From Alphaproteobacteria bacterium (GTDB lineage Bacteria > Pseudomonadota > Alphaproteobacteria > CAAGCB01 > CAG-977), in contig CAAGEK010000024.1 of the NCBI GenBank assembly GCA_900768845.1, positions 3,001 through 67,000 on the forward strand: a stretch of 64,000 nucleotides of DNA, in the 5' to 3' direction. The translations under genes were made by a program, and so were the position numbers. Shown here one piece after another: positions 11,422-44,827 of the stretch (position 1 is the first letter of the stretch; the number at the start of each line of letters is the position of its first letter). Below the pieces are notes generated by a model that worked only from the letters and a program-made list of their open reading frames with translations, was not told the DNA's origin and made no database searches.

Positions 11422-11463
11422 AAGCGGACGGGATCAAGCGGAATTTGAAAAAGCTGAAAAAAG

Positions 11464-11500
11464 CGGGAAAACTGCGCCGCGTCGGTCTAGATAAAGGGAA
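11464..11500 (+). repeat. Duplicated 3'-end fragment of a rhuM-like gene (recombination scar)
   Basis: GGGAAAACTGCGCCGCGTCGGT at 11464-11485 is identical to 10393-10414 (end of rhuM). It translates as ...AGKLRRVGLDKGNKQ, a remnant RhuM C-terminus. Confidence 0.55.
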
Positions 11501-11632
11501 TAAACAGGTTGAAACGCAAGAAAAAACAGCCAAATTTTTCATTTTTTGATTGATTTATTTTGTGAAATAATAAAATATAGTTGCAATCAAAACGATGAAA
11601 ACAGTAAGTAGGAATTGATTGAAGGAAAGAAT

Positions 11633-12991: not shown

Positions 12992-13023
12992 AACACAATA
13001 CCAAAAATGATAAGGAGAAATAA

Positions 13024-14298: not shown

Positions 14299-14479
14299 GA
14301 AAAAAAATAAATCGCTTCGTCGCTATCGCTTCTGGCAATGACGAAAAAACGGGAAAAGAGAATAATGCAAAAAATAACCTCGGAGTGGTAACGCTACCAA
14401 GGCGCCATAGCACTTTCCGAGGACTATTGAGGGGTAAGATATCATTTTTCACGGATTTGTCAAGGGGGAATGAACGTCA

Positions 14480-15124
14480 ATGTTACAGTTATTGAAAGAA
14501 AGCTTTTCGGAACAACGTTTAAGCACTTATCAGCGAATAGCTGCAACAAAAGGGCTGTCTGAAGGAAAAGCAGTCGAATTATATAAAATCAATATCTTAA
14601 TTTGTGAAGAACTTTATGCCTTTATTGATTGTGTCGAAGTTTGTTTGCGCAATAAGATTCATAAAAAAATGACGGAGGCTTTCAAATGTCAAACATGGTA
14701 CGATTCCGTGCAATGGCTTCCCTTGCATCAGGACAGTCTGGATAACGCTAAAAAAGTTAAGTACCCTCAGGAAATACCTTCAGCTAATGATGTTATAGCC
14801 AGACTGAATTTCGGATTTTGGTGTCATATTTTTGACGCTTTTTATGAGCAACGTTTATGGATTCCGGTCTTACGTTTTCTTTTTCCCAATTATGCAGGCG
14901 CACCGTCGCGAAAGCATATATCCAACGTTTTCAACAAATTATTGAAAATAAGAAACAGAATTGCCCACTTTGAGCCTGTTATTAAAGACGAAGCGGATTT
15001 ACTCAAAAGCTATAATCAACCGGTAGAAGTTATAAATTGGATGAATCCGGAAATATATAATTGGTTTGAAACATTTAACAGATTTAAAGAACTTTACAGA
15101 CAACTGAAGTCTGGCGATTTTTAA
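14480..15124 (+). CDS. Abi_2-family (AbiD/AbiF-like) abortive-infection protein
   Basis: 214 aa. The conserved C-terminal motif LLKIRNRIAHFEPV (RNxxAH) and overall composition match Pfam Abi_2. It sits between hsdS and hsdR. Confidence 0.65.
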   Translation: MLQLLKESFSEQRLSTYQRIAATKGLSEGKAVELYKINILICEELYAFIDCVEVCLRNKIHKKMTEAFKCQTWYDSVQWLPLHQDSLDNAKKVKYPQEIPSANDVIARLNFGFWCHIFDAFYEQRLWIPVLRFLFPNYAGAPSRKHISNVFNKLLKIRNRIAHFEPVIKDEADLLKSYNQPVEVINWMNPEIYNWFETFNRFKELYRQLKSGDF

Positions 15125-15139
15125 AGAAAGGGCTGAAAA

Positions 15140-18100
15140 ATGACCGACTCTTATGTTCATCTTTTCTTTGATGAAGCGTGTCAATCGCAGTTGCCGTGCG
15201 TGGAAATGCTGGTCAATATGGGGTGGGAGTTTTTGCCTCTTGCCGATTTGGAAGCCGCACGGGAAAAAAATCCCGCCAAATCCGTTCTGAAATCCGTTTG
15301 CGAACAGGCTTTGGATAAAATCAACCGTTTTGAACATTTGGACAAGTCTTATCATTTCTCGCCCAAAAACATCGCTAACGCCGTTTTCGATTTGGAAAAT
15401 TTCCCGATGAAGGGGCTGATGACGACTTCCGCAGAAGTTTATGCCGATTTAATCGCCGGACGGGATTTAAAGGAATTTGTGCAAAATAAAGAATCTTCTT
15501 TCGATTTTAGGTTTTTCGATTTTGAGCATATCGAAAACAACCGTTTCCAAGTCGCTGTCGAAGTTCCTTTACGCGGCAAAGAAAACATTCGTCCCGACAT
15601 CGTTTTGTATGTCAACGGCATTCCCCTTGTCGTCATAGAAAACAAAAAATCCGCCGTCAGTGTGCAGGAAGCGGTCGTTCAGCTGATTGATTATCAAGCG
15701 AAGTTTCCGCGCTTTTTTTTGTTTCCTCAGTTGTTAATCGCGACGAACAAATCTGAATTTCTTTACGGAACGACAGGAACGCCTAAAAAATTTTATTCCG
15801 TATGGCAGACGGAGGATTTTGACGAAGAGGCGTGTCTGAACGCGATGACAAAAAAAATCGACGACGCCGTTTATCAAAAAATCCTTGCCGATTTGAACGG
15901 AGCGACTTTCAATCATCGCCAAAATACGGGAAAGAGGCTGATTTCAGAACAGGATCGCGGCGTTTTTGAGCTGTTGCAACCCGTCAGATTGATGCGGCTG
16001 ATTAAAAACTTTATCCTTTATGATGCGGACAAGAAAAAAATCGCCCGCCATCAGCAAATTCGCGCCATTTCCAAAACGATGGACGCCATTCGCTCTTTTG
16101 ACGGTAATTCCCGCAAAGGCGGTTTGATCTGGCATACGCAGGGATCGGGAAAAACGTTGACAATGGTGATGTTGGCAAGAGCGATCTTTTCGGACAAATC
16201 CATCAAAGATCCCCGTGTCATCGTTGTAACGGACAGAAAGGATTTGGACCGGCATATCCGCGACACGTTTAAACAGTGCAAGTTGAAACAGGGCGTTATG
16301 CAGGCGAAATCCGGCGCGGATCTGATAAAAAAACTGGAAGACCTTGAAAAGGTTGAAAATCTGGAAAATCCCAAAGGACGGGTCATTACGACTTTGGTAC
16401 ATAAGTTTGACGCGGCATTTAAAAAACGGTCGACTTTCAAAGACGAAGATCCGAATATCTTTATCTTTATTGACGAAGCGCACAGAACGCAAACGGGACA
16501 GGCCAATGCGAACATGGGAAAAATCCTGCCGAACGCGTGCGTCATCGCTTTTACCGGAACGCCCTTGATGAAAGGGGAACACGCCAGTTATCTGAAATAC
16601 GGGGGTTATATCGACAAATATACGATAGACGAAGCCTTGCACGATAAAAATATTCTGCCGTTGATGTATGAACAACGTCAAATCCGGTTTGAACAGTATG
16701 AAGGGTTGGTCAGGAAAAAGATCGATGATGACGAGGATTTTAAAAAGCTGTCCGATGAAAACAGGAAAAAATTACAGCAGGAAATCAAAGCGCGTGTTCT
16801 GTTCGAGCTTGACGACGTCGTTTCGGATATCGGCAAAGATATACAAAAGCATTTTATGAAAAACGCTTTTCTGACGGATGGAACGCCGAACGGATTTAAA
16901 GCGCAACTTGTCACGCCGTCCAAGGCTTCCGCCGTTAAATTTCAGCATTTTTTTGAAAATCAAACAGATATCGAAACCGCCGTCGTCATTTCAAACGAAG
17001 TCGGTAAAAATGAAAAGGATATTGAAGAAAAAAAAGAAGTTCGCGAGTTCCTGAAAGAAAAAACGGAAAAATCAGGAACATTGGACAAGTACGAAGAACA
17101 ATGTATCGACAGTTTTACGAACAACGATGACGGGATTCAAATTCTGATCGTTGTTGATAAACTCTTGACGGGGTTTGACGCGCCCAGAAACACTTTTTTG
17201 TATTTATTGCGCCCGTTGCAGGATCACAACCTGTTACAGGCGATTGCCCGCGTCAACCGTTTGTGCGATGAAACAAAAGAACAGAAAACGGCGGGATTTA
17301 TCATCGACTATTCCAAAAATCAGGAACATATCACGGACGCGATGCGGTTGTTTTCCAAATACAATCAGGAAGACGTCGCCGGAGCTTTAGAGGATTTGAA
17401 TAAAAAAATCGACGAACTGGACGGTTGTTATCAGGACGTGATCCGCTTGTTCAAACACTTGAAAAACTCGATCGATGAGGAAGAATATATCAGGGCTTTG
17501 GCAGATGAAGAGGCTAGAAAAGATTTTTATAAAAAACTGAACCGCTTTATTTCCGTATTTTCGGAAGCCGTGCTTTTCCGCGATTTTGAAACGACTTTCG
17601 GAAATGAAAAATCGGCTTTGTATAAGAAGCAATCCTTAAAGTTTTTGAACATCAAAAAATCCGCTGTTTGCCGTTATGCCGATGTGGTCGATTTGAGCGT
17701 CTACCGGCAAAAAATATACCGTGTTTTACAATCTGCCGTCAGTGTTGAGGAAATTAAAGAAGTTACTCAAAGCGTCGATATTATGAACCTGAACGGCATG
17801 AAAAAAGATCTGGAAAAGTTTTCTCCGAAATCCGCCGCGGAAGCCATGCTCGCGAACATGACGAGAAAGACTTCCGTTCTGATGGAAACCGATCCCGAAT
17901 TTTATAAGTCTTTTTATGAGAAAATTCAGGAGTTGATTGAAAAGCTGAACAAGGCCGACGCCGATTACGAAGAATTGTTTTCGGATGCGCAAGTCTTACA
18001 GCAGGAATTGATCAACCATGAATGCGAAAAATCTTCCGCAGACAGAACCGCGGATTTGTTCTACCGCAATTTGAGCCCCTTGTTTGAAAAAATCAAAGAT

Positions 18101-18322
18101 CGAAACTTACAGGAGGAAATCGGGAAACTGACGGATTTCTTCAAAAAGAATTTGATTGTCGAATGGTCGGTCAATGATGAAACGCAACGTATGCTCAAAA
18201 CGAAAATCGACGATTATCTGTATGATACTTACGGCGCGATTTTGAACGATACTTCGTGGGATATTGCCGAAGCTTTGATGAATTTGTCTTTGCATAACAA
18301 AGAGCTGTTCGATGTCCGATAA
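15140..18322 (+). CDS. hsdR: Type I restriction endonuclease R subunit (helicase/nuclease)
   Basis: 1060 aa. N-terminal nuclease region (VVIENKK), SF2 helicase motifs I (HTQGSGKTLTM) and II (FIFIDEAHRTQTG), and a C-terminal HsdR helical domain. Confidence 0.9.
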   Translation: MTDSYVHLFFDEACQSQLPCVEMLVNMGWEFLPLADLEAAREKNPAKSVLKSVCEQALDKINRFEHLDKSYHFSPKNIANAVFDLENFPMKGLMTTSAEVYADLIAGRDLKEFVQNKESSFDFRFFDFEHIENNRFQVAVEVPLRGKENIRPDIVLYVNGIPLVVIENKKSAVSVQEAVVQLIDYQAKFPRFFLFPQLLIATNKSEFLYGTTGTPKKFYSVWQTEDFDEEACLNAMTKKIDDAVYQKILADLNGATFNHRQNTGKRLISEQDRGVFELLQPVRLMRLIKNFILYDADKKKIARHQQIRAISKTMDAIRSFDGNSRKGGLIWHTQGSGKTLTMVMLARAIFSDKSIKDPRVIVVTDRKDLDRHIRDTFKQCKLKQGVMQAKSGADLIKKLEDLEKVENLENPKGRVITTLVHKFDAAFKKRSTFKDEDPNIFIFIDEAHRTQTGQANANMGKILPNACVIAFTGTPLMKGEHASYLKYGGYIDKYTIDEALHDKNILPLMYEQRQIRFEQYEGLVRKKIDDDEDFKKLSDENRKKLQQEIKARVLFELDDVVSDIGKDIQKHFMKNAFLTDGTPNGFKAQLVTPSKASAVKFQHFFENQTDIETAVVISNEVGKNEKDIEEKKEVREFLKEKTEKSGTLDKYEEQCIDSFTNNDDGIQILIVVDKLLTGFDAPRNTFLYLLRPLQDHNLLQAIARVNRLCDETKEQKTAGFIIDYSKNQEHITDAMRLFSKYNQEDVAGALEDLNKKIDELDGCYQDVIRLFKHLKNSIDEEEYIRALADEEARKDFYKKLNRFISVFSEAVLFRDFETTFGNEKSALYKKQSLKFLNIKKSAVCRYADVVDLSVYRQKIYRVLQSAVSVEEIKEVTQSVDIMNLNGMKKDLEKFSPKSAAEAMLANMTRKTSVLMETDPEFYKSFYEKIQELIEKLNKADADYEELFSDAQVLQQELINHECEKSSADRTADLFYRNLSPLFEKIKDRNLQEEIGKLTDFFKKNLIVEWSVNDETQRMLKTKIDDYLYDTYGAILNDTSWDIAEALMNLSLHNKELFDVR

Positions 18323-19025
18323 ACAAATATCCGTAGGGCAAAAAATTTATAATTATAACTTGTTGCTGTCTGAACGGAAAACGGCAACGATTTATATTTC
18401 AAACGATGCAAAGATTACTGTAAAAGCTCCGCTCAATGTCAGCATCGGCCGTATAGAAACATTTATCCGGCAAAAAGCAAAGTGGATTGCCGAGCAATTG
18501 GAAGAAGTGGAAAAATACAGGCAAATTTCCGATCGGAACAAATATTTGTCCGGTTCCGCTTTGCTTTATCTGGGGCGACAATACAAAGTCATTGTCAATC
18601 CCGCCCTTGAGCAGGAAAAGGTTCAACTGTTAAAAAACCGGATCGTTATTTTTACGAAACAGAACGTTCAAAACGAAATTCATAACGGATCGCTCGTTAA
18701 GCTTTGGTACGAAAAACGGCAAAAGCGCGTTTTTCGGGAGCGTTTCGCTTTGATTTCCGAGCAATTCCCCGATTTTGAAAATCCGAAACTGGCCGTGATT
18801 AAAATGAAAAACAGATGGGGATGCTATCGTATCAACGGCACGGTCGTTTTAAATCCGGAGCTGATCAAAGCGTCCAAACAATGTATCGACTATGTGCTTT
18901 ATCACGAGTTTTGCCACCATTTTTTCAGAAAACATGATGCGGACTTTTATAAAATGCTTGAAGAAAAAATGCCTGATTGGAAAAAGGTGAAAGAAAAACT
19001 TGAACTGCGATTTACATCAAATTAG
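18312..19025 (+). CDS. YgjP-like DUF45 / M48-family metallopeptidase-like protein
   Basis: 237 aa with HEFCHH (HExxH) near the C-terminus. It overlaps the hsdR stop. This family is frequently the last gene of type I RM operons. Confidence 0.8.
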   Translation: MSDKQISVGQKIYNYNLLLSERKTATIYISNDAKITVKAPLNVSIGRIETFIRQKAKWIAEQLEEVEKYRQISDRNKYLSGSALLYLGRQYKVIVNPALEQEKVQLLKNRIVIFTKQNVQNEIHNGSLVKLWYEKRQKRVFRERFALISEQFPDFENPKLAVIKMKNRWGCYRINGTVVLNPELIKASKQCIDYVLYHEFCHHFFRKHDADFYKMLEEKMPDWKKVKEKLELRFTSN

Positions 19026-19274: not shown

Positions 19275-19373
19275 CACAATTTTAAGATTTGCATATAGAA
19301 AATAACATATAGTATATAGAGCATGGTATATAAAAACGGACAAGCAAGTTTGCATCTTTTAAGGCATACCTTT

Positions 19374-21503
19374 ATGACCGAAACATCGGATAGCGGATTA
19401 TTATGTTTGAGCGTGATGGCGCAATTATTTGAGCGCAAGACCAATCCGCAACAATTACGGCATTTGTCAGGCAAGGGATCGGGGTTGTTTGACGAAACGG
19501 ATATTTTGCGCGGCGCAAAAACGCTTGATTTGAAAGCCAAGGCGATTCAAAGCGGGATGGAGCGGTTGGAACAAACGCCTTTGCCGGCGATCGGGTGTGC
19601 ACGCGACGGGACTTTTTTCGTGTTGGCCAAGTATGCGCCCGATAAAGTGCTGATTCACAGGCCGGAAAAAGGACGGCCGGAAATCATCAGTGCGGAGGCG
19701 TTCGCGGCATTATGGTCGGGGCGGTTGATTTTATTCACTTCCCGCCAAAGTTTAAAAAAAATGTGGCGGCGATTTGAAATCGCGTGGTTCATTCCGGCCG
19801 TTTTGAAATACAAAAAACTGTTCGGCGAAGTTTTGCTGTCGTCTTTGTTTTTGCAGATTTTCGCTCTTGTTTCGCCTCTGTTGTTTCAGGTGGTGATTGA
19901 TAAAGTGCTTGTCCATCACAGTTTAAGCACTTTGGACGTGATTTTTTTCACTTTGTTGTGCATGACGGTGTTCGAGTGCGTTTTAAGCACGTTGAGGACA
20001 TATGTTTTCTCTCACACGACGAACAGAATAGACGTCGAACTCGGCGCGCAACTGTTCAAGCATCTGTTGGCTCTTCCTTTGGCGTATTTCGGGGCGAGAC
20101 GTGTCGGCGACACGGTCGCAAGAGTTCGGGAATTGGAAAATATCAGGAATTTTTTGACCGGCTCGGCATTGACTTTGGTCATTGATACGGCGTTTACGGT
20201 TGTGTTTTTTGCCGTGATGCTGATGTATGCGCCTTTTTTGACGCTGATTGTCGCTTTGTCCGTTCCGTTTTATGTCGTTTTGTCGTTGCTGGCGTCCCCC
20301 GTTTTGCATAGAAGAGTGGAGGAAAAGTTCAAATACGGTGCGGAAAACCAAGCTTTTTTAGTAGAGTCCGTTTCGGCGATCGAAACGTTGAAAGCTCTGG
20401 CGGTCGAGCCTCAATCCGTTCGCAAGTGGGAAGAACAGTTGGCTGCTTATGTCGCAAGTTCGTTCAGAGTGTCCAATCTGGCGAACATCTGCCATAACGC
20501 AATCGGCTTTATTCAAAAAACGACGTCGGCTTTAACTTTGTTTTTCGGGGCAAAGCTGGTTATCGAAGGCAAAATGACGGTCGGACAACTGGTGGCGTTC
20601 AATATGCTGGCCGGTCATGTAGCGGCTCCGATTTTGCGGTTGGCTCAATTATGGCAGGATTTTCAGCAAGTCCGCATTTCCATCGACCGGTTGGGCGATA
20701 TTCTGAACACTCCGGCGGAACCGGCGGTCAATTCGGGGCAGGCTCCGGCGGTCGCGCTAAAAGGCGACGTGAAATTCAGCGGCGTTTCCTTTCGCTATGC
20801 TTTGGACAAACCGCAAGTCCTGTCCGACGTGACATTGCACGTCAAAGCGGGGGAAAGCGTCGGCATCGTCGGTTCTTCGGGGTCGGGCAAAAGCACGTTG
20901 ACAAAGCTTGTTCAGCGGCTTTATTTGCCTGAAACGGGGCGGATTACGATTGACGATATTGATATTTCCACGGCCGATCCTTCTTGGCTCAGGCGGCAAA
21001 TCGGCGTTGTTTTGCAGGAAAACACTTTGCTGAACCGTTCGGTGCGCGACAATATCGCTTTGGTCGATCCGGTTCAGCCGCTGGAAAATATCATTCGGGC
21101 GGCGAAAGTGGCGGGAGCGCACGATTTTATCGCCGAAATGCCGGAAGGGTACGATACGATCGTCGGGGAACGCGGAACTTCCCTGTCCGGCGGCCAGCGG
21201 CAGAGAATAGCCATTGCGCGGGCTTTGCTTGTCAATCCTCGCATTTTGATTTTTGACGAAGCGACTTCCGCCCTTGATTATGAATCCGAAGCTTTGATTA
21301 AAAAAAATATGGCGGCAATCGGCAAAAACAGGACGGTTTTCATTATCGCTCACAGGTTGTCCACGGTTCGGACGTGCGACCGGATCATCGTGATTGAAAA
21401 AGGCGAAATCGTCGAAGAAGGAACGCATGACGGCCTTCTTTCCCGCCCGAACGGCCGGTACGCTTATTTGTGGAACTGTCAGATGAACGGAGAAGCCGTA
21501 TGA
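19374..21503 (+). CDS. Type I secretion system ABC transporter (HlyB/RtxB family) with an N-terminal C39-like domain lacking the catalytic Cys
   Basis: About 709 aa from ATG 19374. End-to-end similarity to the HlyB architecture: a C39-like N-domain (DSGLLCLSVMAQLF, with Ser where peptidase C39 has Cys), a 6-TM domain, Walker A (GSSGSGKST), signature LSGGQRQR and Walker B (ILIFDEATS). Confidence 0.9.
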   Translation: MTETSDSGLLCLSVMAQLFERKTNPQQLRHLSGKGSGLFDETDILRGAKTLDLKAKAIQSGMERLEQTPLPAIGCARDGTFFVLAKYAPDKVLIHRPEKGRPEIISAEAFAALWSGRLILFTSRQSLKKMWRRFEIAWFIPAVLKYKKLFGEVLLSSLFLQIFALVSPLLFQVVIDKVLVHHSLSTLDVIFFTLLCMTVFECVLSTLRTYVFSHTTNRIDVELGAQLFKHLLALPLAYFGARRVGDTVARVRELENIRNFLTGSALTLVIDTAFTVVFFAVMLMYAPFLTLIVALSVPFYVVLSLLASPVLHRRVEEKFKYGAENQAFLVESVSAIETLKALAVEPQSVRKWEEQLAAYVASSFRVSNLANICHNAIGFIQKTTSALTLFFGAKLVIEGKMTVGQLVAFNMLAGHVAAPILRLAQLWQDFQQVRISIDRLGDILNTPAEPAVNSGQAPAVALKGDVKFSGVSFRYALDKPQVLSDVTLHVKAGESVGIVGSSGSGKSTLTKLVQRLYLPETGRITIDDIDISTADPSWLRRQIGVVLQENTLLNRSVRDNIALVDPVQPLENIIRAAKVAGAHDFIAEMPEGYDTIVGERGTSLSGGQRQRIAIARALLVNPRILIFDEATSALDYESEALIKKNMAAIGKNRTVFIIAHRLSTVRTCDRIIVIEKGEIVEEGTHDGLLSRPNGRYAYLWNCQMNGEAV

Positions 21504-22822
21504 GTGACAAGCCGTCTTTGGAACAACAGTTTTTGCCGGCGGTTTTGGAAATCACGGAAACGCCGCCGTCGCCTTTGGGACGGGCGACGATGTACGCGAT
21601 TATCGGCGTGTTTTGTTTCGCTTTACTGCTCAGTCTGATTTGTAAAGTCGATATTATTGCGATAGCTTCGGGAAAAATCATTTCAAGCGGGCACAACAAA
21701 CTGATCCAGCCGTTGAAAAGCGGCGTTGTCGCAGATATTTTCGTGCGCGACGGACAGGCTGTCAAAAAAGGCGACCCGTTGGTGCAAATCAAATTCGAAG
21801 ACGCCGAAGTCAACCGCATCCGCTTGGAACGGGAATTGTTGTTTGCGTCAATGGACGTGGCGCGGTTGACGGCTTTGCTGGCGGAGAATCCTTTGAAATC
21901 GTTTGCGCCGCCTTCTTCCGCTTCGGAAGAGCTGAAAAGCAAAAACAGGATTTTGTTAAAAAACGAAACGGATAAAATCAGAACACAGTTGGCCGTCATT
22001 GACGAACAAATCGTTCAGGCCGAAGCCGAAAAGGAAACGGCTCAAGCGTCGATAAAAAAGATTGAACGCCTTCTTCCGAACGTCCGTTTCCGCGTGGATC
22101 AGTACCGCGATATTTATGAAAAGGGCAGTATTGCAAAGTCTTTTTTTCTGGAAAAAGAAAAAGAGTTGATCCAGTACGAGGAAGATTTAAACGTTCAACG
22201 CAATACTTTGGCGGAAATCAAAGCGAAATTGCAGGTTTTGGCCACACAGAAAGAGCAGGAGAAATTGAATTTTAAAAACGACGTCCTTTACCGTTTGCAG
22301 GAAGCGTCCAACAAGGAAAAGTTGTTAAAAGACGAATACGCCAACGCGCAATGGATTGACGGCTTGACAACGATCAAAGCCCCCGAGGACGGTATGATAC
22401 AGGAAATGGAAATCCACACGGTCGGCGGCGTTGTCACTCCGGCGCAAACGTTGATGAAACTTGTTCCGTCCGACAGCGTTCTGGAAATAGAGGCAATGGT
22501 CTTGAACAAGGACGTCGGGTTTGTGGAGGAAGGGCAGGACGTCAGCATCAAGGTCGACAGTTTCCCCTATACGCGATACGGCACGATTGACGGAAAACTG
22601 GTGCATTTGTCACGCGACGCAGTCGAAAACGAACAGCTCGGCTTGATTTATATCGCGAGAATTTCCATGTCGCGGGACACTGTCCGCGTGGAGGATAAAG
22701 ACGTCCGTCTTTCCGCGGGCATGAGCGTTTCCGCGGAAATCAAGACCGGCCGCCGCCGTTTGATTGAAATTATCCTGACGCCGTTTATGGAATATGCATC
22801 TGAAAGCCTAAGGGAAAGATGA
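21500..22822 (+). CDS. Type I secretion periplasmic adaptor (HlyD family membrane fusion protein)
   Basis: 440 aa from an ATG overlapping the ABC stop (ATGA). It has an N-terminal TM helix, a long coiled-coil hairpin and the C-terminal HlyD barrel (LVPSDSVLEIEAMVLNKDVGFVEEGQDV...). Confidence 0.9.
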   Translation: MSDKPSLEQQFLPAVLEITETPPSPLGRATMYAIIGVFCFALLLSLICKVDIIAIASGKIISSGHNKLIQPLKSGVVADIFVRDGQAVKKGDPLVQIKFEDAEVNRIRLERELLFASMDVARLTALLAENPLKSFAPPSSASEELKSKNRILLKNETDKIRTQLAVIDEQIVQAEAEKETAQASIKKIERLLPNVRFRVDQYRDIYEKGSIAKSFFLEKEKELIQYEEDLNVQRNTLAEIKAKLQVLATQKEQEKLNFKNDVLYRLQEASNKEKLLKDEYANAQWIDGLTTIKAPEDGMIQEMEIHTVGGVVTPAQTLMKLVPSDSVLEIEAMVLNKDVGFVEEGQDVSIKVDSFPYTRYGTIDGKLVHLSRDAVENEQLGLIYIARISMSRDTVRVEDKDVRLSAGMSVSAEIKTGRRRLIEIILTPFMEYASESLRER

Positions 22823-23867: not shown

Positions 23868-25148
23868 ATGGTACGTCCGTTCAACACAAGAAAGATTATG
23901 ACAAGTTTATTTTTGTTTCTGGGTGTAATTGCGTCTTGTTCTATGGCAAAGAATGAAAACGTCATGCACCCCGCCGGAAAAGAAAAGGCTGAAAACGTCG
24001 TGCAATCCGCCGGAAAAGAACCGGAAATAAGACCGAGTGATTATTCAAAAACAAAAAAGGAATACGCCGCCTCTTCAGTTCATCCGTTACCGCCATATCC
24101 GACCGAAGAACAACAGAATGAAGTTGTTTTTGACGAAATGAGATATGATGGTATGCGAGAAGCTTTTGAAATAATAAATAACAAATCATATAAAAAAATG
24201 CCTTCGTATGATTGTAATAAAGCGAAAACAGAAGTTGAAAAACTGATTTGTTCGAATGAAACGTTATCCGAATTAGATGCAAAAATGGCTTTATTGCATG
24301 AATATATGCAAGATTTGTATGATTTGGAGCTGACGCCATCCAGAGGGCATTTAGAATGGTTGAAGGCACGCAATAATTTCGAATGTAAGCCAAAAATAGA
24401 AAATAAAACGGACTGCCTTATATCTTTGTATGAGTTAAAAATAAGCAGTCAGTTAGCCGTTATTTTTATGCAACAGTTATATGCTGAAGATAGCATCAGG
24501 AATCGGGAAAATCAAAAAAATAAAAAGTTAAACAGATATTGGTTTGATTTGTTTTTAAGCCAAGGTTTTTCTGTCAATTTCAGGGGGGATTTTTTAGGAA
24601 GTCAGGTTGATTATTTGGGAGGTAGCTGCCCTGTGTTTGTAAGGATGAGGGGAATTTATCATCCTGATTATTTTACGTATGCCCTTGATCATGGCGCGGA
24701 TGTTAATTTGCAAAATAGATACTGTCCGCCGGTTCTATTTTATGCAAGCAGAGATGCAGATGTTGATAAGATTTTAGAAATGGGGGCGGATGTTAATGCA
24801 GTTTCAGGAAGCGGAGAGCCTTTGTTGGTTCATCGTACGGATCTTGCAGAAAAGATATTGCCATTAGGGGCTGATCCGAACAAGGCTAATGAATATGATG
24901 GAGAAACGCCTTTGATGAGGGGGGCGTATTGGATCAAAGCGAATTATTTGCCGGCGTACATTAAGTTGTTGGTCCGATACGGCGCAGATATAACAGCCAA
25001 AAACAAGGAAGGAAAAACCGCATATGACGTTTTGGTCGAAACGTATGACAATCCCAAAGTTTATGAAGATAGAAGACAAGAACTAAAGTTAACGGATGAC
25101 GAAATGAATAAATACTTAGATGAAGCAAAAAAATTATTAAGAAATTAA
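23868..25148 (+). CDS. Lipoprotein with a DUF1311 (LprI/lysozyme-inhibitor-like) domain and C-terminal ankyrin repeats
   Basis: Lipobox LGVIASC. The DUF1311-like cysteine pattern YDCNKAKTEVEKLICSNETLSELDAKMALLHEY...LEWLKARNNFEC. At least three ankyrin repeats (GADVNLQN..., GADVNAVSGSGEPLLVH..., GADITAKNKEGKTAYD). Confidence 0.7.
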   Translation: MVRPFNTRKIMTSLFLFLGVIASCSMAKNENVMHPAGKEKAENVVQSAGKEPEIRPSDYSKTKKEYAASSVHPLPPYPTEEQQNEVVFDEMRYDGMREAFEIINNKSYKKMPSYDCNKAKTEVEKLICSNETLSELDAKMALLHEYMQDLYDLELTPSRGHLEWLKARNNFECKPKIENKTDCLISLYELKISSQLAVIFMQQLYAEDSIRNRENQKNKKLNRYWFDLFLSQGFSVNFRGDFLGSQVDYLGGSCPVFVRMRGIYHPDYFTYALDHGADVNLQNRYCPPVLFYASRDADVDKILEMGADVNAVSGSGEPLLVHRTDLAEKILPLGADPNKANEYDGETPLMRGAYWIKANYLPAYIKLLVRYGADITAKNKEGKTAYDVLVETYDNPKVYEDRRQELKLTDDEMNKYLDEAKKLLRN

Positions 25149-25202
25149 AAAGAACAGGTCAATCCCGAACGGTATGCTCGGGATTGTCCCGAAACGGCGA
25201 TT

Positions 25203-26195
25203 TCACGGCTTTTTCCTTTTGTGTCCGCCGTATCCTTCACCGATGGTGCGCCCGATGGCCGGAATTTTTTCGCCGATGCCGCCAAAACAATGGAACGGTG
25301 TGCCGCTTGATCCGGCTTTATTCGGGTAAAGCTCGTAAAACTTACGATATTCGTCTTCCGTCACGTTCGGCATCACGACGTTTGCGCCGCTTTGCAAAGC
25401 AATGATGCGTCCGTCGGGATGCAGGCTTTCCATTGCTGTCGTGGCGGGAATGTTGATGTCCGGCAATAACAGGCGCATAATCGCCATCGTGCGCAAAGCC
25501 AAATGCAACGTTCCGCCCGCTTCTTTTCCCAGAGGCGTATCCGGATGGGGGATGAAAGGCCCTATGCCGGCCATATCGACTTCCAGATCTTTCAAAAACA
25601 GCAAATCGTCGGCGATTGAATCAAGCGATTGCCCCGGCAATCCGACCATGATGCCCGATCCGAGTTCAAACCCCAGTTCTTTAATCATCAACAGACATTC
25701 GTAACGCTTGTCCCAGCTCATTTCCGGATCAAGGCGATGATATAAGTCTTTGTCCGTCGTTTCAATGCGCATCAAATAACGGTCGGCGCCGGCTTCCCGA
25801 AAAGTTTTGTAGTCTTCATAACTGCGTTCGCCAATGCTGAGCGTGACGGCGACATCGAATTTTTTGATTTTTTCGATGATGCCCGCCATCTTTGAAGCAC
25901 TGAAGAACAGGTCTTCGCCCGATTGCAAAACAACGGTCTTAAAGCCCGTGACAGCCGCTTTCCTCGCCGTTTCAACCACTTCTTCGGGGCTCATGCGATA
26001 GCGCACGGCTTTTGTGTTTCCCCGCCGGATGCCGCAGTACAGACAGTTGTTCCGGCATATGTTTGAAAATTCTATCAATCCGCGCAAATGAACGGCGTCT
26101 CCGACATTCCGTTTCCGGACTTCGTCGGCGCGATGCAAAAGGGCTTTTTCGTTTTTTTCGTCTGACAACAGACGGATGACATCCCGTTTTTCCAT
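25203..26195 (-). CDS. Radical SAM enzyme of the HydE/PylB/BioB-like family (resembling [FeFe]-hydrogenase maturase HydE more than true BioB)
   Basis: 330 aa. A CxxxCxxC cluster (ICRNNCLYCGIRRGN), a GGE-type SAM motif (VVLQSGED) and the ADRYLMRIETTD and MVGLPGQS blocks. It lacks the BioB CPEDCKYC/YNHNLDT signatures. The start overlaps the mnmA stop. Confidence 0.7.
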   Translation of the reverse strand: MEKRDVIRLLSDEKNEKALLHRADEVRKRNVGDAVHLRGLIEFSNICRNNCLYCGIRRGNTKAVRYRMSPEEVVETARKAAVTGFKTVVLQSGEDLFFSASKMAGIIEKIKKFDVAVTLSIGERSYEDYKTFREAGADRYLMRIETTDKDLYHRLDPEMSWDKRYECLLMIKELGFELGSGIMVGLPGQSLDSIADDLLFLKDLEVDMAGIGPFIPHPDTPLGKEAGGTLHLALRTMAIMRLLLPDINIPATTAMESLHPDGRIIALQSGANVVMPNVTEDEYRKFYELYPNKAGSSGTPFHCFGGIGEKIPAIGRTIGEGYGGHKRKKP

Positions 26196-26196
26196 A

Positions 26197-27279
26197 TTAT
26201 TGTCCGTTCCGTTCTATGATTCCGCCTCCGAGGACGAATCCCTCTTCATCGTAAAAAACGACGGATTGTCCGGTCGCCGACGCTTTTTGCCTTTCTTGGA
26301 AAACGACTTCGACCGATCCGCCGGCTCGGGGGACGATTTCTGCAGGAACAGGTTTTTGAGAGGAGCGCACTTTGCAAAAAGCGCGGACGGGGCGTTCCAA
26401 ACCGGACACGGACACCCAATTCACGTTTCCCGCAGTCAGGCTTTCCCTGTAGCGTTCTTCGTCAAATCCCAAAACGACTTCATTCGTTTCGGGGCGTATT
26501 TCCATGACGTACAACGGGCGTTCGGCACTGATGCCCAATCCTTTGCGCTGACCCGTCGTGTAGTTCCAAATCCCTTTGTGGCGGCCGAGGATTCTGCCGT
26601 CGGCGTCTACGAAATTTCCGGTTTGCGGTTCCGTTTGCAAAATATCGTTTATGTCGCCCGAATAAAAATCCTGACTGTCGGGTTTGTCGCTGACTTTCAG
26701 GCCGTATTTGCGCGCCGTTTCGCGAACCTGATCTTTGGTGAAGTTTCCCAAGGGCAGCATGATGCCCGCCAGCCGTTCCTGTTGCAGGCGGTAGAGGAAA
26801 TAGCTTTGGTCTTTGCGTTCGTCGACGGCGCGTTGCAAACGGAAACGTTGCGTCCGCCCGTCAAACGACAGTCGGGCGTAATGGCCGGTGGCGAATTTGT
26901 CGAATTCGATTCCGTCTTTGGCGGCTTTTTCGGGCAGAGCTTTGAATTTTATCGACGCATTGCACATGACGCAGGGGTTCGGCGTCCGGCCGGACAGGTA
27001 TTCGCGCTTGAAATTTTCCAAAACAAGCCGTCTGTATTCTTCGGTGCAGTCGATGACACGGTAAGGGATGCCGAGCGTTTCGCACAACGCCCGCGCTTCT
27101 TGCGTGTCCTGTTCTTCGTGCGGGGAAAAGCAACCGTTTTTTTGTGCCGGAAGGTTATGGTGGCTTTCTTTGTTCCAAATCGACATCGTTGCGCCGACGA
27201 CTTCGTGACCGGCCTCCTTTAACAGACACGCCGCGACGGAGGAATCGACGCCTCCGCTTAATCCGACCAATATTTTCAT
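26197..27279 (-). CDS. mnmA: tRNA-specific 2-thiouridylase (tRNA 5-methylaminomethyl-2-thiouridine synthase)
   Basis: 360 aa with the N-terminal PP-loop MKILVGLSGGVDSSVAA and conserved MnmA catalytic Cys regions. Confidence 0.9.
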   Translation of the reverse strand: MKILVGLSGGVDSSVAACLLKEAGHEVVGATMSIWNKESHHNLPAQKNGCFSPHEEQDTQEARALCETLGIPYRVIDCTEEYRRLVLENFKREYLSGRTPNPCVMCNASIKFKALPEKAAKDGIEFDKFATGHYARLSFDGRTQRFRLQRAVDERKDQSYFLYRLQQERLAGIMLPLGNFTKDQVRETARKYGLKVSDKPDSQDFYSGDINDILQTEPQTGNFVDADGRILGRHKGIWNYTTGQRKGLGISAERPLYVMEIRPETNEVVLGFDEERYRESLTAGNVNWVSVSGLERPVRAFCKVRSSQKPVPAEIVPRAGGSVEVVFQERQKASATGQSVVFYDEEGFVLGGGIIERNGQ

Positions 27280-27426
27280 CCGTATCTCCAGAATAAAAAT
27301 TTCCCCGACGGCGGAAGTATAGGGCGGAAAATCCGTTTTATCAACAAAAGCGGCGGTTTTTCCGCTCGGGAAGACTGTTCAATCGGGGATGCGGCGGTTA
27401 TAGTACGGTAAAACCGCCCGCAATTT

Positions 27427-35622: not shown

Positions 35623-37992
35623 ATGACAGATGTAAAACCGTTTGCCGAATTGATGGATTTGGTTAATCCCTTAAACGGGACAATCGACCCTGCGGATGAA
35701 AAATTGGCGCGGGAGGTTTTGCAGGCTTTGGAAAAACACCCCGCATCCCGGGAAGCTGTCGACAATTGGGCAAAAGCCGGATACGAAGTCGTTTTCGCTA
35801 ATATGAGTACCAAGGTTTTTCACGGATCAAAGCGTTTCATTTTAAGCAAAAGGGATACTCCGGATAAACTGGCGGACAGTATTGTCGCTTCATCCGAAGG
35901 GCTGACGTTGAATCAGTTGAAGTTTGTCTTTCCCAAGCGGAAAGAAGAGGCGGATTCTTTCAAGGATTCGCTGTCCCGCATTTTAGGAAACGACGCTCAG
36001 CGGGAACGCTACGGCAAAATGCTGGATGAGCTTTATTCCCGCCCCGAAGGAAAGAAATTGTTGGAACGTTTGGCGTTTCACAATACGCGTGTCGCTTTTA
36101 ATACGGATGTGGTCGGAGATGAACGCGGAACGTTTGATAAGCGGTATGATTGCATCCTTTTGAACGAAAACCTGTCCGGCAAGGAGCTGTCCGAAACGTT
36201 TGAAACCTTGGCGAAAGAAGCCGTCGCTTATGCCGAACGGCCGAACCGTCAGGTGTTGAAAGAGGCTTTTGAGACAAAAACGCCCGAAGAAGAAGGATTG
36301 GCGGAACGTTTGATCGAAACGGCTTATAAAACGCCTGTCGGGGCGGAAATAATGGATCAAATGGCAAAGGCGGGCTATTCGATCCACTTTGAAAACATCC
36401 CTCCGCGAAAAGACGGTACGATAACCTTCGGATTTTGCAGTTTTTCCTCTCGCCGGATTGTTTTGGATCCGAAACATCCGTTTGAAAGCATGATATCGAC
36501 CTTTGTTCATGAATCGGAACACGCCCTTCAAAATGAAAGATATGCGAAAAGCGGACTGGACAGACGGAAATTAGACGTTGCATCCATGTTTAAAAAATCA
36601 CGCGCCATGGAAGCGGACGCCTGCGCGCACGAAGCGTTGTTCGCATGGCAGATTAAGGATGTCCATCCCGAAATCTATCAGTATAACCAAAGCGACGATA
36701 TAAACCGTGCTTTTATTCGTGAAATGGAAAACAGCGGCGATCCGTCCAAATCCATGTCTGCGGCATTTATGCAATGGTATGATTCCGAGGGCAGGCAGGG
36801 GAGCTATGAAAAGGATCATTTTGAATACGCGGAACATACGGCGAGATGCGGAATAGCGCGTCAAGTGTACGGATATTTTTCCGACGAGGCGTCTTCGAAA
36901 GAGGTTTTGGACGGCTGTCTGGTCGGGGGTAAGCCCTATGTCGAGCCCTCATTTTTGGATTCTCCGATTGCAACGGCGATTAAGGATGAAACCAAACAAA
37001 AGCTGGACGCCCTGATGCTGAATTATTCCCGTGCCGTCGAAACAAAGATGGATACGTCGTTATTCAATATGGCTTCCAGAGAAAAATTGGCCGCCGAGCG
37101 TCGAAAACAGGCGGAATTGGAAAGTATGTATCGGGATACTTTCAGAAATGAAGGTTTCAATAGTGAGGAGCAAAAGGCTTTAGTTCAGGGAATATTGGAC
37201 TGTCCGGAAGGGGAAAAGGCGGCGGAGCGTCTGAAGGGCGTTAATCTGTGGTTTGAAAAATCGGACAAGCCGATGGAATATATGCCGCAGGCAAACGCGC
37301 TGATCGTTGATCCCGATCGTATTCCCGAAGCCGCACGGGAAGCGGTAAGGCACAGCCGGCTTATCGAAGGCGGAAAACTGGCTCATAAGTGCGGAAATGC
37401 GGGTTTGCTTGCTTTCAAACCTTCGTTGTTGGTGTCGCCGAAAGAGGAAGCCCGAAGGTTGCAAAGCGTTATGGACGTTATGTGTGTCCGCGAGAAAAAC
37501 ACTCCGATGATGGTTCGGGAAATGAAAGCCCTGAATTATGAAATCGCTTTCAGCGATGATATATGCGGGGACAGCATCGCTTCCGTTCCGCGGAGGAGAC
37601 GGATGATCGTGTTGCATACCGATGCTTCAAACACTCCGGAAATGTTGGCGGATGCGATGTTAAAGGAAATGAAGAAACTTCCCGAACGTCATGCCGCCGA
37701 AATGCCGGTGGCGCGTTTGGCAGCCGTTGAAAAAATGCGGCAGGAAATGTTTGAAAAGGGAAAAATCGAACAAATCAGTTCCGTGCATCCGACTGCCGAA
37801 ACTCACGGCAAGCAACAATCCGCAGAAGAGCCGGCCAAGCTGTCTCAAGCCGTCGAAAAAACGGCCGGACAACGGCAATCCGGCGCGCCGTCCAAATCTT
37901 CGTTGCACGGGGTTTTGACTGAAATCGACCAAAAACAACGAATCGGGCAACTCCGGCAGAAAATCGCGTCCGTAAAATCAGCAGGGCGTTAA
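35623..37992 (+). CDS. Large hypothetical protein, member of the HExxH...EADAxAHE paralog family (putative zincin-like domain plus extra N/C regions)
   Basis: About 789 aa from ATG 35623. The central block FVHESEHALQNERY...RAMEADACAHEALFAWQ aligns with the other two copies. Multiple Cys residues and no signal peptide. Confidence 0.72.
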   Translation: MTDVKPFAELMDLVNPLNGTIDPADEKLAREVLQALEKHPASREAVDNWAKAGYEVVFANMSTKVFHGSKRFILSKRDTPDKLADSIVASSEGLTLNQLKFVFPKRKEEADSFKDSLSRILGNDAQRERYGKMLDELYSRPEGKKLLERLAFHNTRVAFNTDVVGDERGTFDKRYDCILLNENLSGKELSETFETLAKEAVAYAERPNRQVLKEAFETKTPEEEGLAERLIETAYKTPVGAEIMDQMAKAGYSIHFENIPPRKDGTITFGFCSFSSRRIVLDPKHPFESMISTFVHESEHALQNERYAKSGLDRRKLDVASMFKKSRAMEADACAHEALFAWQIKDVHPEIYQYNQSDDINRAFIREMENSGDPSKSMSAAFMQWYDSEGRQGSYEKDHFEYAEHTARCGIARQVYGYFSDEASSKEVLDGCLVGGKPYVEPSFLDSPIATAIKDETKQKLDALMLNYSRAVETKMDTSLFNMASREKLAAERRKQAELESMYRDTFRNEGFNSEEQKALVQGILDCPEGEKAAERLKGVNLWFEKSDKPMEYMPQANALIVDPDRIPEAAREAVRHSRLIEGGKLAHKCGNAGLLAFKPSLLVSPKEEARRLQSVMDVMCVREKNTPMMVREMKALNYEIAFSDDICGDSIASVPRRRRMIVLHTDASNTPEMLADAMLKEMKKLPERHAAEMPVARLAAVEKMRQEMFEKGKIEQISSVHPTAETHGKQQSAEEPAKLSQAVEKTAGQRQSGAPSKSSLHGVLTEIDQKQRIGQLRQKIASVKSAGR

Positions 37993-44444: not shown

Positions 44445-44471
44445 CGATAAAAAAAACGTGGATGAAAAGAA

Positions 44472-44512
44472 AACGCAGGATAGTTTTAAATTAAATCTAT
44501 CCTGCGTTTTTG
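44472..44512 (+). terminator. Rho-independent terminator
   Basis: CGCAGGATAG...CTATCCTGCG stem followed by TTTTT. Confidence 0.5.
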
Positions 44513-44789
44513 GTATCAATGAACCATTTGAAAAAAGTTAAAACTAAGTTGCGTTTCGGTTAAAACTAACCTGCGCGCTACATGAAAACCGTCTCTTTCA
44601 TTACAGTCCGCTTGTTATGAAAAATGAGTCTAAAAAATCTGACGGAAATGTCTGAAATCATTCACCGCGTTACAGAAGCCGTGTTTCGGGACGGCTTTTC
44701 CGCCTTTTTAAAGGGACGGGGGAGGGGGCGTTCGTCCGGAAACGATGAAGGCCGAAGCGCAGGGAAGCCATCCGTTTTCTGCGGAAATA

Positions 44790-44822
44790 CAAAAAAGCGG
44801 CAGACATGATGCTACCGCTTTT
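44790..44822 (-). terminator. Rho-independent terminator downstream of tRNA-Lys
   Basis: On the minus strand: GCGGUAGCAUCAUGUCUGCCGC hairpin (one G-U pair) followed by UUUUUU. Confidence 0.45.
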
Positions 44823-44827
44823 GTTTA

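What the first reader, a model, noticed from the sequence alone, without database searches (positions are those of the whole stretch)
25203..27279. HydE-like radical SAM enzyme translationally coupled to mnmA
The ORF carries ICRNNCLYCGIRRGN, VLQSGED and other blocks that I recall as characteristic of HydE/PylB-type radical SAM enzymes. It lacks the BioB hallmarks. Its start codon overlaps the stop of the tRNA thiouridylase gene mnmA. No hydG/hydF or hydrogenase genes are in the window. Either this is a lone HydE-like paralog with a different substrate, or it is linked to sulfur or tRNA chemistry.
Basis: partly seen in the sequence, partly recalled or inferred. Interest (0 to 1): 0.5.

Follow-up and report, generated by a model that had tools for sequence, protein, structure and literature searches.

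The report
Ordinary HydE maturase gene behind mnmA
The gene is a normal HydE, one of the three helper enzymes that build the iron cofactor of [FeFe] hydrogenases, in an uncultured anaerobic gut alphaproteobacterium; its position directly behind the tRNA-thiolation gene mnmA is a lineage-specific operon arrangement and does not point to a new function.

Summary
The two ORFs are real: mnmA at 26197-27279(-) and a 330-aa radical SAM gene at 25203-26195(-). They do not overlap. The junction reads TAA-T-ATG, a 1-nt gap.

The radical SAM protein is a bona fide HydE.
- It scores 362.6 bits on the HydE equivalog TIGR03956 (cutoff 254.6) and falls far below the PylB, BioB, HmdB, ThiH and HydG cutoffs.
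- It aligns with Thermotoga maritima HydE over 318 residues without a single indel (53% identity).
- It keeps all 12 catalytic or cavity residues named in the HydE literature. Eleven are invariant in all 201 clade members and T269 is kept in 200.

The window holds no other hyd gene, and that is normal: only 11 of 80 hydE loci from metagenomes had one nearby. The organism is an uncultured gut alphaproteobacterium. Clade members with 73-74% identical HydE carry a true HydF next to hydE. Degli Esposti et al. (2016) list HydE, HydF, HydG and [FeFe] hydrogenases, scattered, in gut MAG species that appear to belong to this kind of organism.

The mnmA-hydE pair is probably ancestral in the clade and was lost at least twice. 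Two more distant lineages also place hydE beside an mnmA, which is a weak hint of linkage.

Side observation: this MnmA lacks the Cys199/200 equivalent, as does a large MnmA subfamily.

Verdict: ordinary, already annotated, low interest.

The parts
27316..27344 (-). sigma-70-like promoter candidate upstream of mnmA (TTGATA-17-TATACT), in the 147-nt divergent spacer shared with recQ
   Evidence: Consensus scan, 10 of 12 matches. This is a prediction only. The second hexamer ends about 36 nt before the mnmA ATG at 27279.
26197..27279 (-). mnmA, tRNA 2-thiouridine(34) synthase, 360 aa. It is a variant with PNPCVMCN (CxxC), a single Cys in the first motif (GCFSPHEE) and no equivalent of E. coli Cys199 / T. 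thermophilus Cys200.
   Evidence: NF001138 381.3 bits (cutoff 284) and TIGR00420 327.7 bits. Pfam tRNA_Me_trans and its M and C domains match. Alignments to E. coli MnmA 2DER place a gap at Cys199.
26193..26199 (-). mnmA-hydE junction TAA-T-ATG: stop, 1-nt spacer, start. There is no room for a promoter or terminator.
   Evidence: Sequence read directly. The same 1-nt gap is found in L019/L020, and overlaps of 8-26 nt in L007, L009, L010, L011 and L107.
25203..26195 (-). hydE, [FeFe]-hydrogenase H-cluster radical SAM maturase, 330 aa. The CX3CX2C motif is at residues 47, 51 and 54. The C-terminal auxiliary-cluster Cys triad is absent.
   Evidence: TIGR03956 362.6 bits (cutoff 254.6). 365 bits and no indels against T. 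maritima HydE structures. Twelve of 12 literature residues are identical.
25160..25186 (-). intrinsic-terminator-like hairpin (11-bp stem, 6 G-C pairs) with a T-rich tail, 17 nt after the hydE stop
   Evidence: Consensus scan and sequence. This is a prediction only.

Best explanation
The ORF at 25203-26195(-) encodes HydE, one of the three dedicated maturases (HydE, HydF, HydG) of [FeFe] hydrogenases.

Established for T. maritima HydE and inferred here from sequence conservation: the enzyme binds SAM on a CX3CX2C [4Fe-4S] cluster. It takes the HydG product [Fe(II)(Cys)(CO)2(CN)]. The 5'-deoxyadenosyl radical attacks the cysteine sulfur and strips away the cysteine backbone. The resulting Fe(I)(CO)2(CN)S units are held on two methionines (Tm M224 and M291, here M208 and M275) and are thought to dimerise into the [Fe2S2(CO)4(CN)2] precursor that goes to HydF.

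The host is an uncultured anaerobic gut alphaproteobacterium, of the kind NCBI labels Alphaproteobacteria, Rhodospirillales or 'Acetobacter sp.' MAGs. In this lineage hydF, hydG and the hydrogenase genes lie elsewhere on the chromosome.

In this genome hydE is the second gene of a two-gene operon: promoter-like site, mnmA, 1-nt gap, hydE, terminator-like hairpin. The arrangement seems ancestral to the clade and has been broken at least twice. It is best read as an inherited accident of gene order that gives co-expression and probably translational coupling, not as a shared pathway.

Shown here: family assignment, residue conservation, operon anatomy, distribution of the arrangement, and HydF next to hydE in clade members.
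Inferred: enzymatic activity, co-transcription, and the presence of hydF, hydG and hydA in this particular genome.
For: Family assignment:
- TIGR03956 HydE 362.6 bits against a cutoff of 254.6.
- Other models fall far below their cutoffs: PylB 162.6 (348.2), BioB 107.5 (225), HmdB 80.3 (320.9), ThiH 60.7 (380), HydG 49.6 (312).

Structure relatives:
- T. maritima HydE chains score 361-365 bits, with query 10-327 matching Tm 26-343 without any gap.
- PylB scores 96.7 bits and BioB about 53 bits.

Residues:
- Tm R54, C63, C67, C70, V105, T134, R155, L157, M224, T269, M291 and K309 are named in PMC11826987 and PMC10114646.
- All 12 are identical in the window protein.
- Eleven are invariant in 201 full-length clade homologs, and T269 is kept in 200 of 201.

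Lineage:
- The closest GTDB genomes are uncultured gut Alphaproteobacteria and an 'uncultured Acetobacter sp.'.
- NCBI names clade proteins HydE.
- Degli Esposti et al. 2016 (PMC4967309, Table 1) list HydE, HydF, HydG plus type A and M3 [FeFe] hydrogenases in the gut metagenomic species Azospirillum sp. CAG:239, CAG:260 and Acetobacter sp. CAG:977. Their accession numbers are far apart, so the genes are scattered.

Direct evidence within the clade:
- L030 and L031 have HydE 73-74% identical to the window protein and nest inside the clade.
- Both carry HydF within 2.4 kb of hydE (TIGR03918 548 and 551 bits, cutoff 325.6).
- The same convergent hydE/hydF pair appears in L109, with Pfam HydF_dimer and HydF_tetramer.

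Control: only 11 of 80 metagenomic hydE loci have any other hyd gene in their flanks.

Anaerobe marker in the window: a 1405-aa BcrAD/BadFG + DUF2229 activase.

Operon anatomy.
Against: - hydF, hydG and hydA could not be looked for in the genome this window comes from. Only about 70 kb of its 104.5-kb scaffold was seen (the 64-kb window plus 3.5 kb beyond it), and none of them is there.
- The link to the CAG genomes of Degli Esposti et al. rests on taxon labels and habitat, not on a direct sequence match.
- The window protein lacks the auxiliary-cluster cysteines C311 and C322, which about 155 of 201 clade members have. That cluster is reported as non-essential.
- The tight mnmA coupling is conserved over 70-80% HydE identity, and hydE is found near mnmA in two other lineages. 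This is more than simple chance predicts.
Confidence: 0.88

Rival explanations
1. Functional linkage: the mnmA-hydE operon reflects a real biochemical or regulatory connection. Both products would be oxygen-sensitive [4Fe-4S] enzymes that draw on cysteine-derived sulfur and are co-regulated. In the bolder form, HydE chemistry (radical C-S cleavage of a cysteine ligand) would feed sulfur to an MnmA that lacks the usual third cysteine.
For: - The pair is tightly coupled (1-nt gap or 8-26-nt overlap) in many clade members whose flanks otherwise differ: window, L007, L009-L011, L019, L027, L028, L033, L044 and L107.
- About 20 contig-length coincidences link the HydE and MnmA hit lists.
- Outside the clade, L106 has cysK-thiM-hydE-mnmA with an ATGA overlap, and L099 has mnmA, a ThiF/MoeB-like gene, then hydE.
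- That is 2 mnmA genes in 420 kb of flank, against about 0.14 expected for a 3-Mb genome with one mnmA. By my own arithmetic the Poisson P is about 0.009.
- The coupled MnmA lacks the Cys199/200 equivalent.
Against: - The pairing was lost at least twice inside the clade, including in the most prevalent species (P0016, 157 contigs).
- The same Cys-less MnmA occurs without hydE (L023-L026). It belongs to a large subfamily: 80 of the best 150 clusters at 50% identity.
- The two outside cases have canonical three-Cys MnmA, and their HydEs group together, so they may count as one event.
- Immediate hydE neighbours are very heterogeneous. Trigger factor is the commonest, at 5 of 105 neighbour proteins from 61 loci, which shows that conserved adjacency to housekeeping genes is common for hydE.
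- The full-text search for papers naming both HydE and MnmA returned only irrelevant hits.
Confidence: 0.07
2. Orphan paralog: the genome has lost, or never had, [FeFe] hydrogenase, HydF and HydG. This HydE-type enzyme would then act on another substrate, such as a thiazolidine-like or other sulfur metabolite.
For: - No other hyd gene lies in the 64-kb window or in any of the 10-kb flanks of several relatives.
- T. maritima HydE is known to turn over non-natural thiazolidines.
- The auxiliary cluster site is lost in this protein.
Against: - All residues that bind and process the HydG product are conserved: M224, M291, K309 and the S3-site R54, T134, R155 are invariant across the clade, and T269 is kept in 200 of 201.
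- HydF sits beside hydE in clade members.
- HydF, HydG and HydA are documented in gut alphaproteobacterial MAG species that appear to be of this kind.
- An isolated hydE is the norm in hydrogenase-bearing organisms.
Confidence: 0.04
3. Mis-assigned family: the protein is really a biotin synthase (BioB), a methylornithine synthase (PylB) or a ThiH-type enzyme. Some metagenome pipelines label clade members 'biotin synthase'.
For: - JGI names three clade proteins 'biotin synthase'.
- There is a weak Pfam BATS domain match of 24 bits.
Against: - It scores far below the curated cutoffs of BioB (107.5 vs 225), PylB (162.6 vs 348.2) and ThiH (60.7 vs 380).
- Against solved structures, HydE scores 365 bits, PylB 97 and BioB 54.
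- No YNHNLD block is present.
- No bio or pyl genes are found in the window.
Confidence: 0.01

Closest known systems
Thermotoga maritima HydE (PDB 3CIW, 3IIZ, 7O1O and others)
   Same: - 53% identity over 318 residues with no insertion or deletion.
- Same CX3CX2C motif.
- Identical R54, V105, T134, R155, L157, M224, T269, M291 and K309.
- Same length class, and the BATS-like C-terminal half of the barrel.
   Different: It lacks two of the three C-terminal cysteines (Tm C311, C322) that hold the auxiliary Fe-S cluster. That cluster is reported as non-essential and is absent from part of the family.
HydE of human-gut uncultivated 'Rhodospirillales' (Azospirillum sp. CAG:239 and CAG:260, Acetobacter sp. 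CAG:977 and CAG:267; Degli Esposti et al. 2016)
   Same: - Same habitat and the same NCBI taxon labels as the closest relatives of the window protein.
- In those genomes hydE lies apart from hydF, hydG and the hydrogenase genes.
   Different: No sequence from those accessions could be fetched, so identity to the window protein was not measured. The paper does not mention mnmA.
PylB (methylornithine synthase) and BioB (biotin synthase)
   Same: Same radical SAM TIM-barrel subgroup with a BATS-type C-terminal part. They are the next-best HMM and PDB matches.
   Different: Scores are 2 to 7 times lower and below the curated cutoffs. There is no BioB [2Fe-2S] or YNHNLD signature, and no pyl or bio gene context.
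C-type, [4Fe-4S]-dependent MnmA of Thermus thermophilus (Shigi et al. 2020)
   Same: For the upstream gene: PP-loop SGGVDSS, a CxxC motif at the position of E. coli D99/C102, and the same three-domain layout.
   Different: The third cluster ligand (Tt Cys200, Ec Cys199) is missing and the loop is 5 residues shorter. The first motif has one Cys (CF) in place of CC.

Membership tests
HydE ([FeFe]-hydrogenase maturase, TIGR03956) | Score above the curated equivalog cutoff, and higher than for sister families | tested here: met
   362.6 bits against a cutoff of 254.6. The next best is PylB at 162.6 bits, below its cutoff of 348.2.
HydE ([FeFe]-hydrogenase maturase, TIGR03956) | Radical SAM CX3CX2C cluster motif near the N-terminus | tested here: met
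   C47-X3-C51-X2-C54 (NICRNNCLYCG) corresponds to Tm C63, C67 and C70. Pfam Radical_SAM scores 85.1 bits.
HydE ([FeFe]-hydrogenase maturase, TIGR03956) | Residues that bind or process the HydG product: M224, M291, K309; the cavity residues V105 and L157; the S3 site R54, T134, R155, T269 (Tm numbering) | tested here: met
   All are identical in the window protein. All except T269 are invariant in 201 clade members, and T269 is kept in 200 of 201. The residue list comes from PMC11826987 and PMC10114646.
HydE ([FeFe]-hydrogenase maturase, TIGR03956) | Co-occurrence with HydF, HydG and an [FeFe] hydrogenase in the same genome | tested here: inconclusive
   - Not found in the window or in the part of its scaffold that was seen.
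- Met for the lineage: HydF lies beside hydE in clade members L030, L031 and L109.
- HydF, HydG and HydA are listed for gut alphaproteobacterial MAG species that appear to be of this kind.
HydE ([FeFe]-hydrogenase maturase, TIGR03956) | C-terminal auxiliary Fe-S cluster (three Cys). This defines a subset only, not the family. | tested here: not met
   Only one of the three Cys is present (G, C, G at Tm 311, 319, 322). The cluster is reported as non-essential.
HydE ([FeFe]-hydrogenase maturase, TIGR03956) | Activity: supports HydA activation together with HydF and HydG; converts [Fe(Cys)(CO)2(CN)] | not testable with these tools
   This needs biochemistry.
BioB (biotin synthase, TIGR00433) | Score above cutoff; [2Fe-2S] ligands and the YNHNLD block; bio gene context | tested here: not met
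   107.5 bits against a cutoff of 225. No YNHNLD block. No bio genes in the window.
PylB (methylornithine synthase, TIGR03910) | Score above cutoff; pylC, pylD, pylS and pylT nearby | tested here: not met
   162.6 bits against a cutoff of 348.2. No pyl genes were seen in the window annotation.
MnmA (tRNA 2-thiouridine(34) synthase) | PP-loop ATP-pyrophosphatase domain plus central and C-terminal barrel domains; score above cutoff | tested here: met
   NF001138 381.3 bits (cutoff 284). Pfam tRNA_Me_trans, _M and _C match.
MnmA (tRNA 2-thiouridine(34) synthase) | Catalytic triad D/CxxC plus a third Cys (Ec C199, Tt C200), reported essential in both characterised types | tested here: not met
   CxxC is present. 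The third Cys aligns to a gap (DSQDF-YSGD) in the window protein, in all 120 closest homologs and in 80 of the 150 best 50%-identity representatives. Essentiality is reported in PMC7025502 and PMC8053098.

The most novel reading that the evidence does not exclude
hydE and an Fe-S-type mnmA are linked by selection. The pair has been kept as a translationally coupled unit through much of a gut alphaproteobacterial clade, and hydE sits next to mnmA again in at least one other lineage (L099 and L106, there together with cysK or a ThiF/MoeB-like gene). This could mean a shared dependence on a cysteine, sulfur or Fe-S supply route. In the boldest form, it could mean a second role of HydE-type C-S cleavage in providing sulfur to an MnmA subfamily that lacks the canonical third cysteine.
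Probability: 0.06. Interest if true: 0.6.

Novelty: already known. Interest (0 to 1): 0.12.

Why it matters
It matters little as it stands. The gene would be named HydE by any standard annotation pipeline, as NCBI's PGAP already does for its relatives. The presence of hydrogenase maturases in gut alphaproteobacterial MAG species was published in 2016.

The work settles that the missing hyd neighbours and the mnmA coupling are not signs of a new enzyme.

Two small leads remain.
- hydE lies beside mnmA more often than chance predicts: the clade itself, plus 2 of 61 other loci.
- There is a large MnmA subfamily without the cysteine that both current mechanisms (persulfide relay and [4Fe-4S] ligation) treat as essential. 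This could be worth a biochemist's attention.

Tried and rejected
1. Finding hydG, hydF or hydA of this very genome.
- Only the window and 3.5 kb beyond its right end (L005, scaffold position 70,443) were seen.
- Matching 'longest contig' lengths between hit lists worked for mnmA, but could not be used for hydG because no lineage-specific HydG query was available and only the best 120 hits are listed.

2. Linking the clade by name to the CAG genomes.
- A second HydE search and two cluster look-ups gave only the labels 'Alphaproteobacteria bacterium', 'Rhodospirillales bacterium' and 'Acetobacter sp.'.

3. Literature.
- Searches for RF32 or CAG-239 with hydrogenase, for 'HydE-like', and for HydE with MnmA gave nothing useful.
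- Supplements of the gut hydrogenase paper, the ciliate hydrogenosome paper and the ammonia-lyase paper held no relevant entries.

4. The idea that loss of MnmA Cys199 goes with hydE coupling.
- Rejected, because the same MnmA type occurs without hydE and is a widespread subfamily.

5. A riboswitch or other known RNA around the operon.
- No Rfam match up to E = 1.

6. Structure prediction.
- Not run. A 53% identical, gap-free crystal-structure relative made it unnecessary.
Full report
**What is there.** On the minus strand the window has a 360-aa ORF at 26197-27279 and a 330-aa ORF at 25203-26195.
- The first ORF is MnmA: NF001138 381.3 bits (cutoff 284), and Pfam tRNA_Me_trans with its M and C domains.
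- The second ORF has a Radical_SAM domain (85.1 bits) and a weak BATS match.
- The junction reads ...GGA CAA TAA T ATG GAA...
- A sigma-70-like site (27344-27316) lies about 36 nt upstream of mnmA.
- An 11-bp hairpin with a T-rich tail (25186-25160) follows the stop of the second gene. Nothing fits between the genes.
- No Rfam family matches the region.
- The anatomy is that of a two-gene operon flanked by a divergent recQ and a convergent ankyrin-repeat gene.

**Family of the radical SAM protein.** Against NCBIfam it scores 362.6 bits on the HydE equivalog TIGR03956 (cutoff 254.6). It stays far below the cutoffs of PylB (162.6 vs 348.2), BioB (107.5 vs 225), HmdB (80.3 vs 320.9), ThiH (60.7 vs 380) and HydG (49.6 vs 312).

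Against all PDB chains, the eight best matches are Thermotoga maritima HydE variants at 361-365 bits (E about 1e-108). Query residues 10-327 align to Tm 26-343 without one gap. PylB gives 96.7 bits and BioB about 53 bits. Identity to TmHydE is 53%.

The HydE literature names these residues:
- the radical SAM cysteines C63, C67 and C70;
- the two methionines that hold the Fe(I)(CO)2(CN)S units, M224 and M291;
- K309 of the proposed radical relay;
- the hydrophobic cavity residues V105 and L157;
- the polar S3-site residues R54, T134, R155 and T269.

With the constant offset of 16, all twelve are identical in the window protein. Eleven are invariant in 201 full-length homologs of its clade, and T269 is kept in 200 of 201. 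Only the C-terminal auxiliary-cluster cysteines are missing (G, C, G at Tm 311, 319, 322). That cluster is reported as non-essential and is present in only part of the family. The protein is therefore a HydE by every sequence criterion I could apply.

**Organism.** Identical or 99% identical copies sit on gut metagenome contigs. The closest species genomes in GTDB are uncultured Alphaproteobacteria and an 'uncultured Acetobacter sp.', at 71-77% identity. An Elusimicrobium at 58% is the nearest outsider. NCBI labels clade members as HydE of 'Alphaproteobacteria bacterium', 'Rhodospirillales bacterium' or 'Acetobacter sp.' MAGs. The window also encodes a 1405-aa BcrAD/BadFG + DUF2229 activase, typical of strict anaerobes.

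**Is it a lone HydE?** The window has no other hyd gene. This rests on Pfam or NCBIfam calls for most ORFs of 90 aa or more and on a six-frame motif scan of the whole window. The rest of this genome could not be reached. Four lines of evidence make the orphan reading unlikely.
- Degli Esposti et al. 2016 (PMC4967309, Table 1) list HydE, HydF, HydG and two types of [FeFe] hydrogenase in the human-gut metagenomic species Azospirillum sp. CAG:239, CAG:260 and Acetobacter sp. CAG:977. The accession numbers are far apart, so the genes are scattered. The link between those species and this clade rests on taxon labels and habitat, not on sequence.
- A scan of metagenome contigs with a HydE alignment returned 80 loci. 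Two of them, L030 and L031, have HydE 73-74% identical to the window protein and nest inside its clade in a neighbour-joining tree. Both carry a true HydF within 2.4 kb (TIGR03918 548 and 551 bits, cutoff 325.6). The same convergent hydE/hydF pair, with Pfam HydF_dimer and HydF_tetramer, is seen in L109.
- One locus from the groups nearest the clade, L083, holds hydG, hydF, hydE and hydA together.
- Only 11 of the 80 hydE loci have any other hyd gene in their flanks. An isolated hydE is therefore the normal state.

**The mnmA coupling.** The pair occurs in the window, L001-L003, L007, L009-L011, L019/L020, L027, L028, L033, L044 and L107/L108. The junction is either the same 1-nt gap or an overlap of 8-26 nt. 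The surrounding genes differ between these loci. About twenty contig-length coincidences between the HydE and MnmA hit lists point the same way.

hydE stands without mnmA in L006, L008, L015-L018 (the most prevalent species, seen on 157 contigs), L021/L022, L029-L032 and others. In the HydE tree the coupled arrangement is paraphyletic, which suggests it is ancestral in the clade and was lost at least twice. The tree is a rough neighbour-joining tree without support values.

Outside the clade two loci also place hydE beside an mnmA:
- L106 has cysK, thiM, hydE and mnmA (ATGA overlap), followed by a NuoF-like gene and a group A6 hydrogenase.
- L099 has mnmA, a ThiF/MoeB-like gene and hydE.

That is two cases in 420 kb of flanking DNA. 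For a 3-Mb genome with one mnmA I expect about 0.14, which gives a Poisson P near 0.009 by my own arithmetic. Several points weaken this:
- The two HydEs group together in the tree, so they may be one event.
- Their MnmAs are of a different, canonical type.
- The immediate neighbours of hydE in the 61 non-clade loci are very mixed. Trigger factor is the commonest (5 of 105 neighbour proteins), followed by HydG-type radical SAM proteins (3), HydA (2) and HydF (2). Conserved adjacency of hydE to a housekeeping gene is thus not unusual.
- The full-text search for papers naming both HydE and MnmA returned only irrelevant hits.

I rate a real functional link at about 6-7%.

**Side observation on MnmA.** The MnmA here has the CxxC form of the catalytic motif (PNPCVMCN). 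It lacks the third cysteine: E. coli KKDSTGICFIGE corresponds to KPDSQDF-YSGD here. That cysteine is Cys199 in E. coli and Cys200 in T. thermophilus. Both the persulfide and the [4Fe-4S] mechanisms treat it as essential (PMC7025502, PMC8053098).
- The first motif has a single Cys (GCFSPHEE) where C-type enzymes have CC.
- All 120 closest homologs share this pattern.
- So do 80 of the 150 best cluster representatives at 50% identity, while 69 have the canonical third Cys.
- The same type occurs without hydE next to it.

It is therefore a large subfamily and is unrelated to the hydE coupling. It was not among the two types and one variant described by Shigi et al. I did not follow it further.

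**Verdict.** The interpretation as a lone paralog, or as an enzyme of tRNA or sulfur chemistry, is not supported. The gene is an ordinary hydE, already named as such by standard pipelines, in a kind of organism for which hydrogenase maturases have been published. Its link to mnmA is a lineage-specific operon arrangement.

Noticed in passing
window 26197-27279 (-); also L007, L009-L011, L019, P0209-P0328, P0329-P0478: This MnmA has CxxC but no equivalent of E. coli Cys199 / T. thermophilus Cys200, which is reported essential in both known mechanisms. It has a single Cys in the first motif (xCFSPHEE). All 120 closest homologs share the pattern, as do 80 of the 150 best cluster representatives at 50% identity. 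This is a large MnmA subfamily that is not among the C- and D-types described by Shigi et al. 2020.
   Followed up: partly
L106 4211-12571; L099 3752-6990: Two metagenome loci from other lineages also put hydE beside an mnmA. L106 has cysK, thiM, hydE, mnmA (4-nt overlap), then a NuoF-like gene and a group A6 [FeFe] hydrogenase. L099 has mnmA, a ThiF/MoeB-like adenylyltransferase, then hydE with no gap between the last two (stop directly followed by start). Both MnmAs are canonical C-type.
   Followed up: partly
L051, L064, L065, L084, L089-L091, L095, L096, L102 and similar (gene of about 433 aa next to hydE): Trigger factor is the most frequent immediate neighbour of hydE in the non-clade loci, at 5 of 105 neighbour proteins. 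This is an example of lineage-specific synteny of hydE with a housekeeping gene.
   Followed up: no
window 7702-19025: A type I restriction-modification island. It holds an HsdS fragment, HsdM, two RhuM-family genes (one with a Fic domain), an unknown 452-aa ORF, a full HsdS, HsdR (1060 aa) and a YgjP-like gene. G+C falls to 32-41% between 10 and 16 kb, against about 50% elsewhere. It was probably acquired horizontally.
   Followed up: no
window 19323-22822: A type I secretion pair: an ABC exporter with a C39 peptidase domain (726 aa) and an overlapping HlyD/AprE-type adaptor. Relatives have large RTX or SPM-repeat proteins near hydE (L015, L017).
   Followed up: no
window 23868-25148 (+): An ankyrin-repeat protein convergent with hydE. 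The same region is broken into several short ORFs in near-identical contigs L002 and L003, so it varies between strains.
   Followed up: no
window 486-1403 (-), 35623-37992 (+), 38005-38916 (+): Three paralogs of the putative metallopeptidase family DUF6782 lie within one 64-kb window.
   Followed up: no
window 39297-43514 (-): A 1405-aa fusion protein with two BcrAD/BadFG ATPase domains and DUF2229 (2-hydroxyacyl-CoA dehydratase activase type), a marker of strict anaerobes. Its exact sequence is not on record in the contig collection, although the neighbouring genes are.
   Followed up: no
window 43905-51100: A Mom-family (phage Mu DNA modification) protein at 43905-44444 is followed by a stretch of ORFs without family matches. 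G+C drops to 39% at 48-50 kb. This may be a prophage remnant or an island.
   Followed up: no
window 25203-26195 (-) compared with the clade (P0001-P0208): The window HydE has lost the auxiliary Fe-S cluster cysteines (Tm C311, C322) that about 155 of 201 clade members keep. The loss is therefore recent and occurred within the clade.
   Followed up: partly
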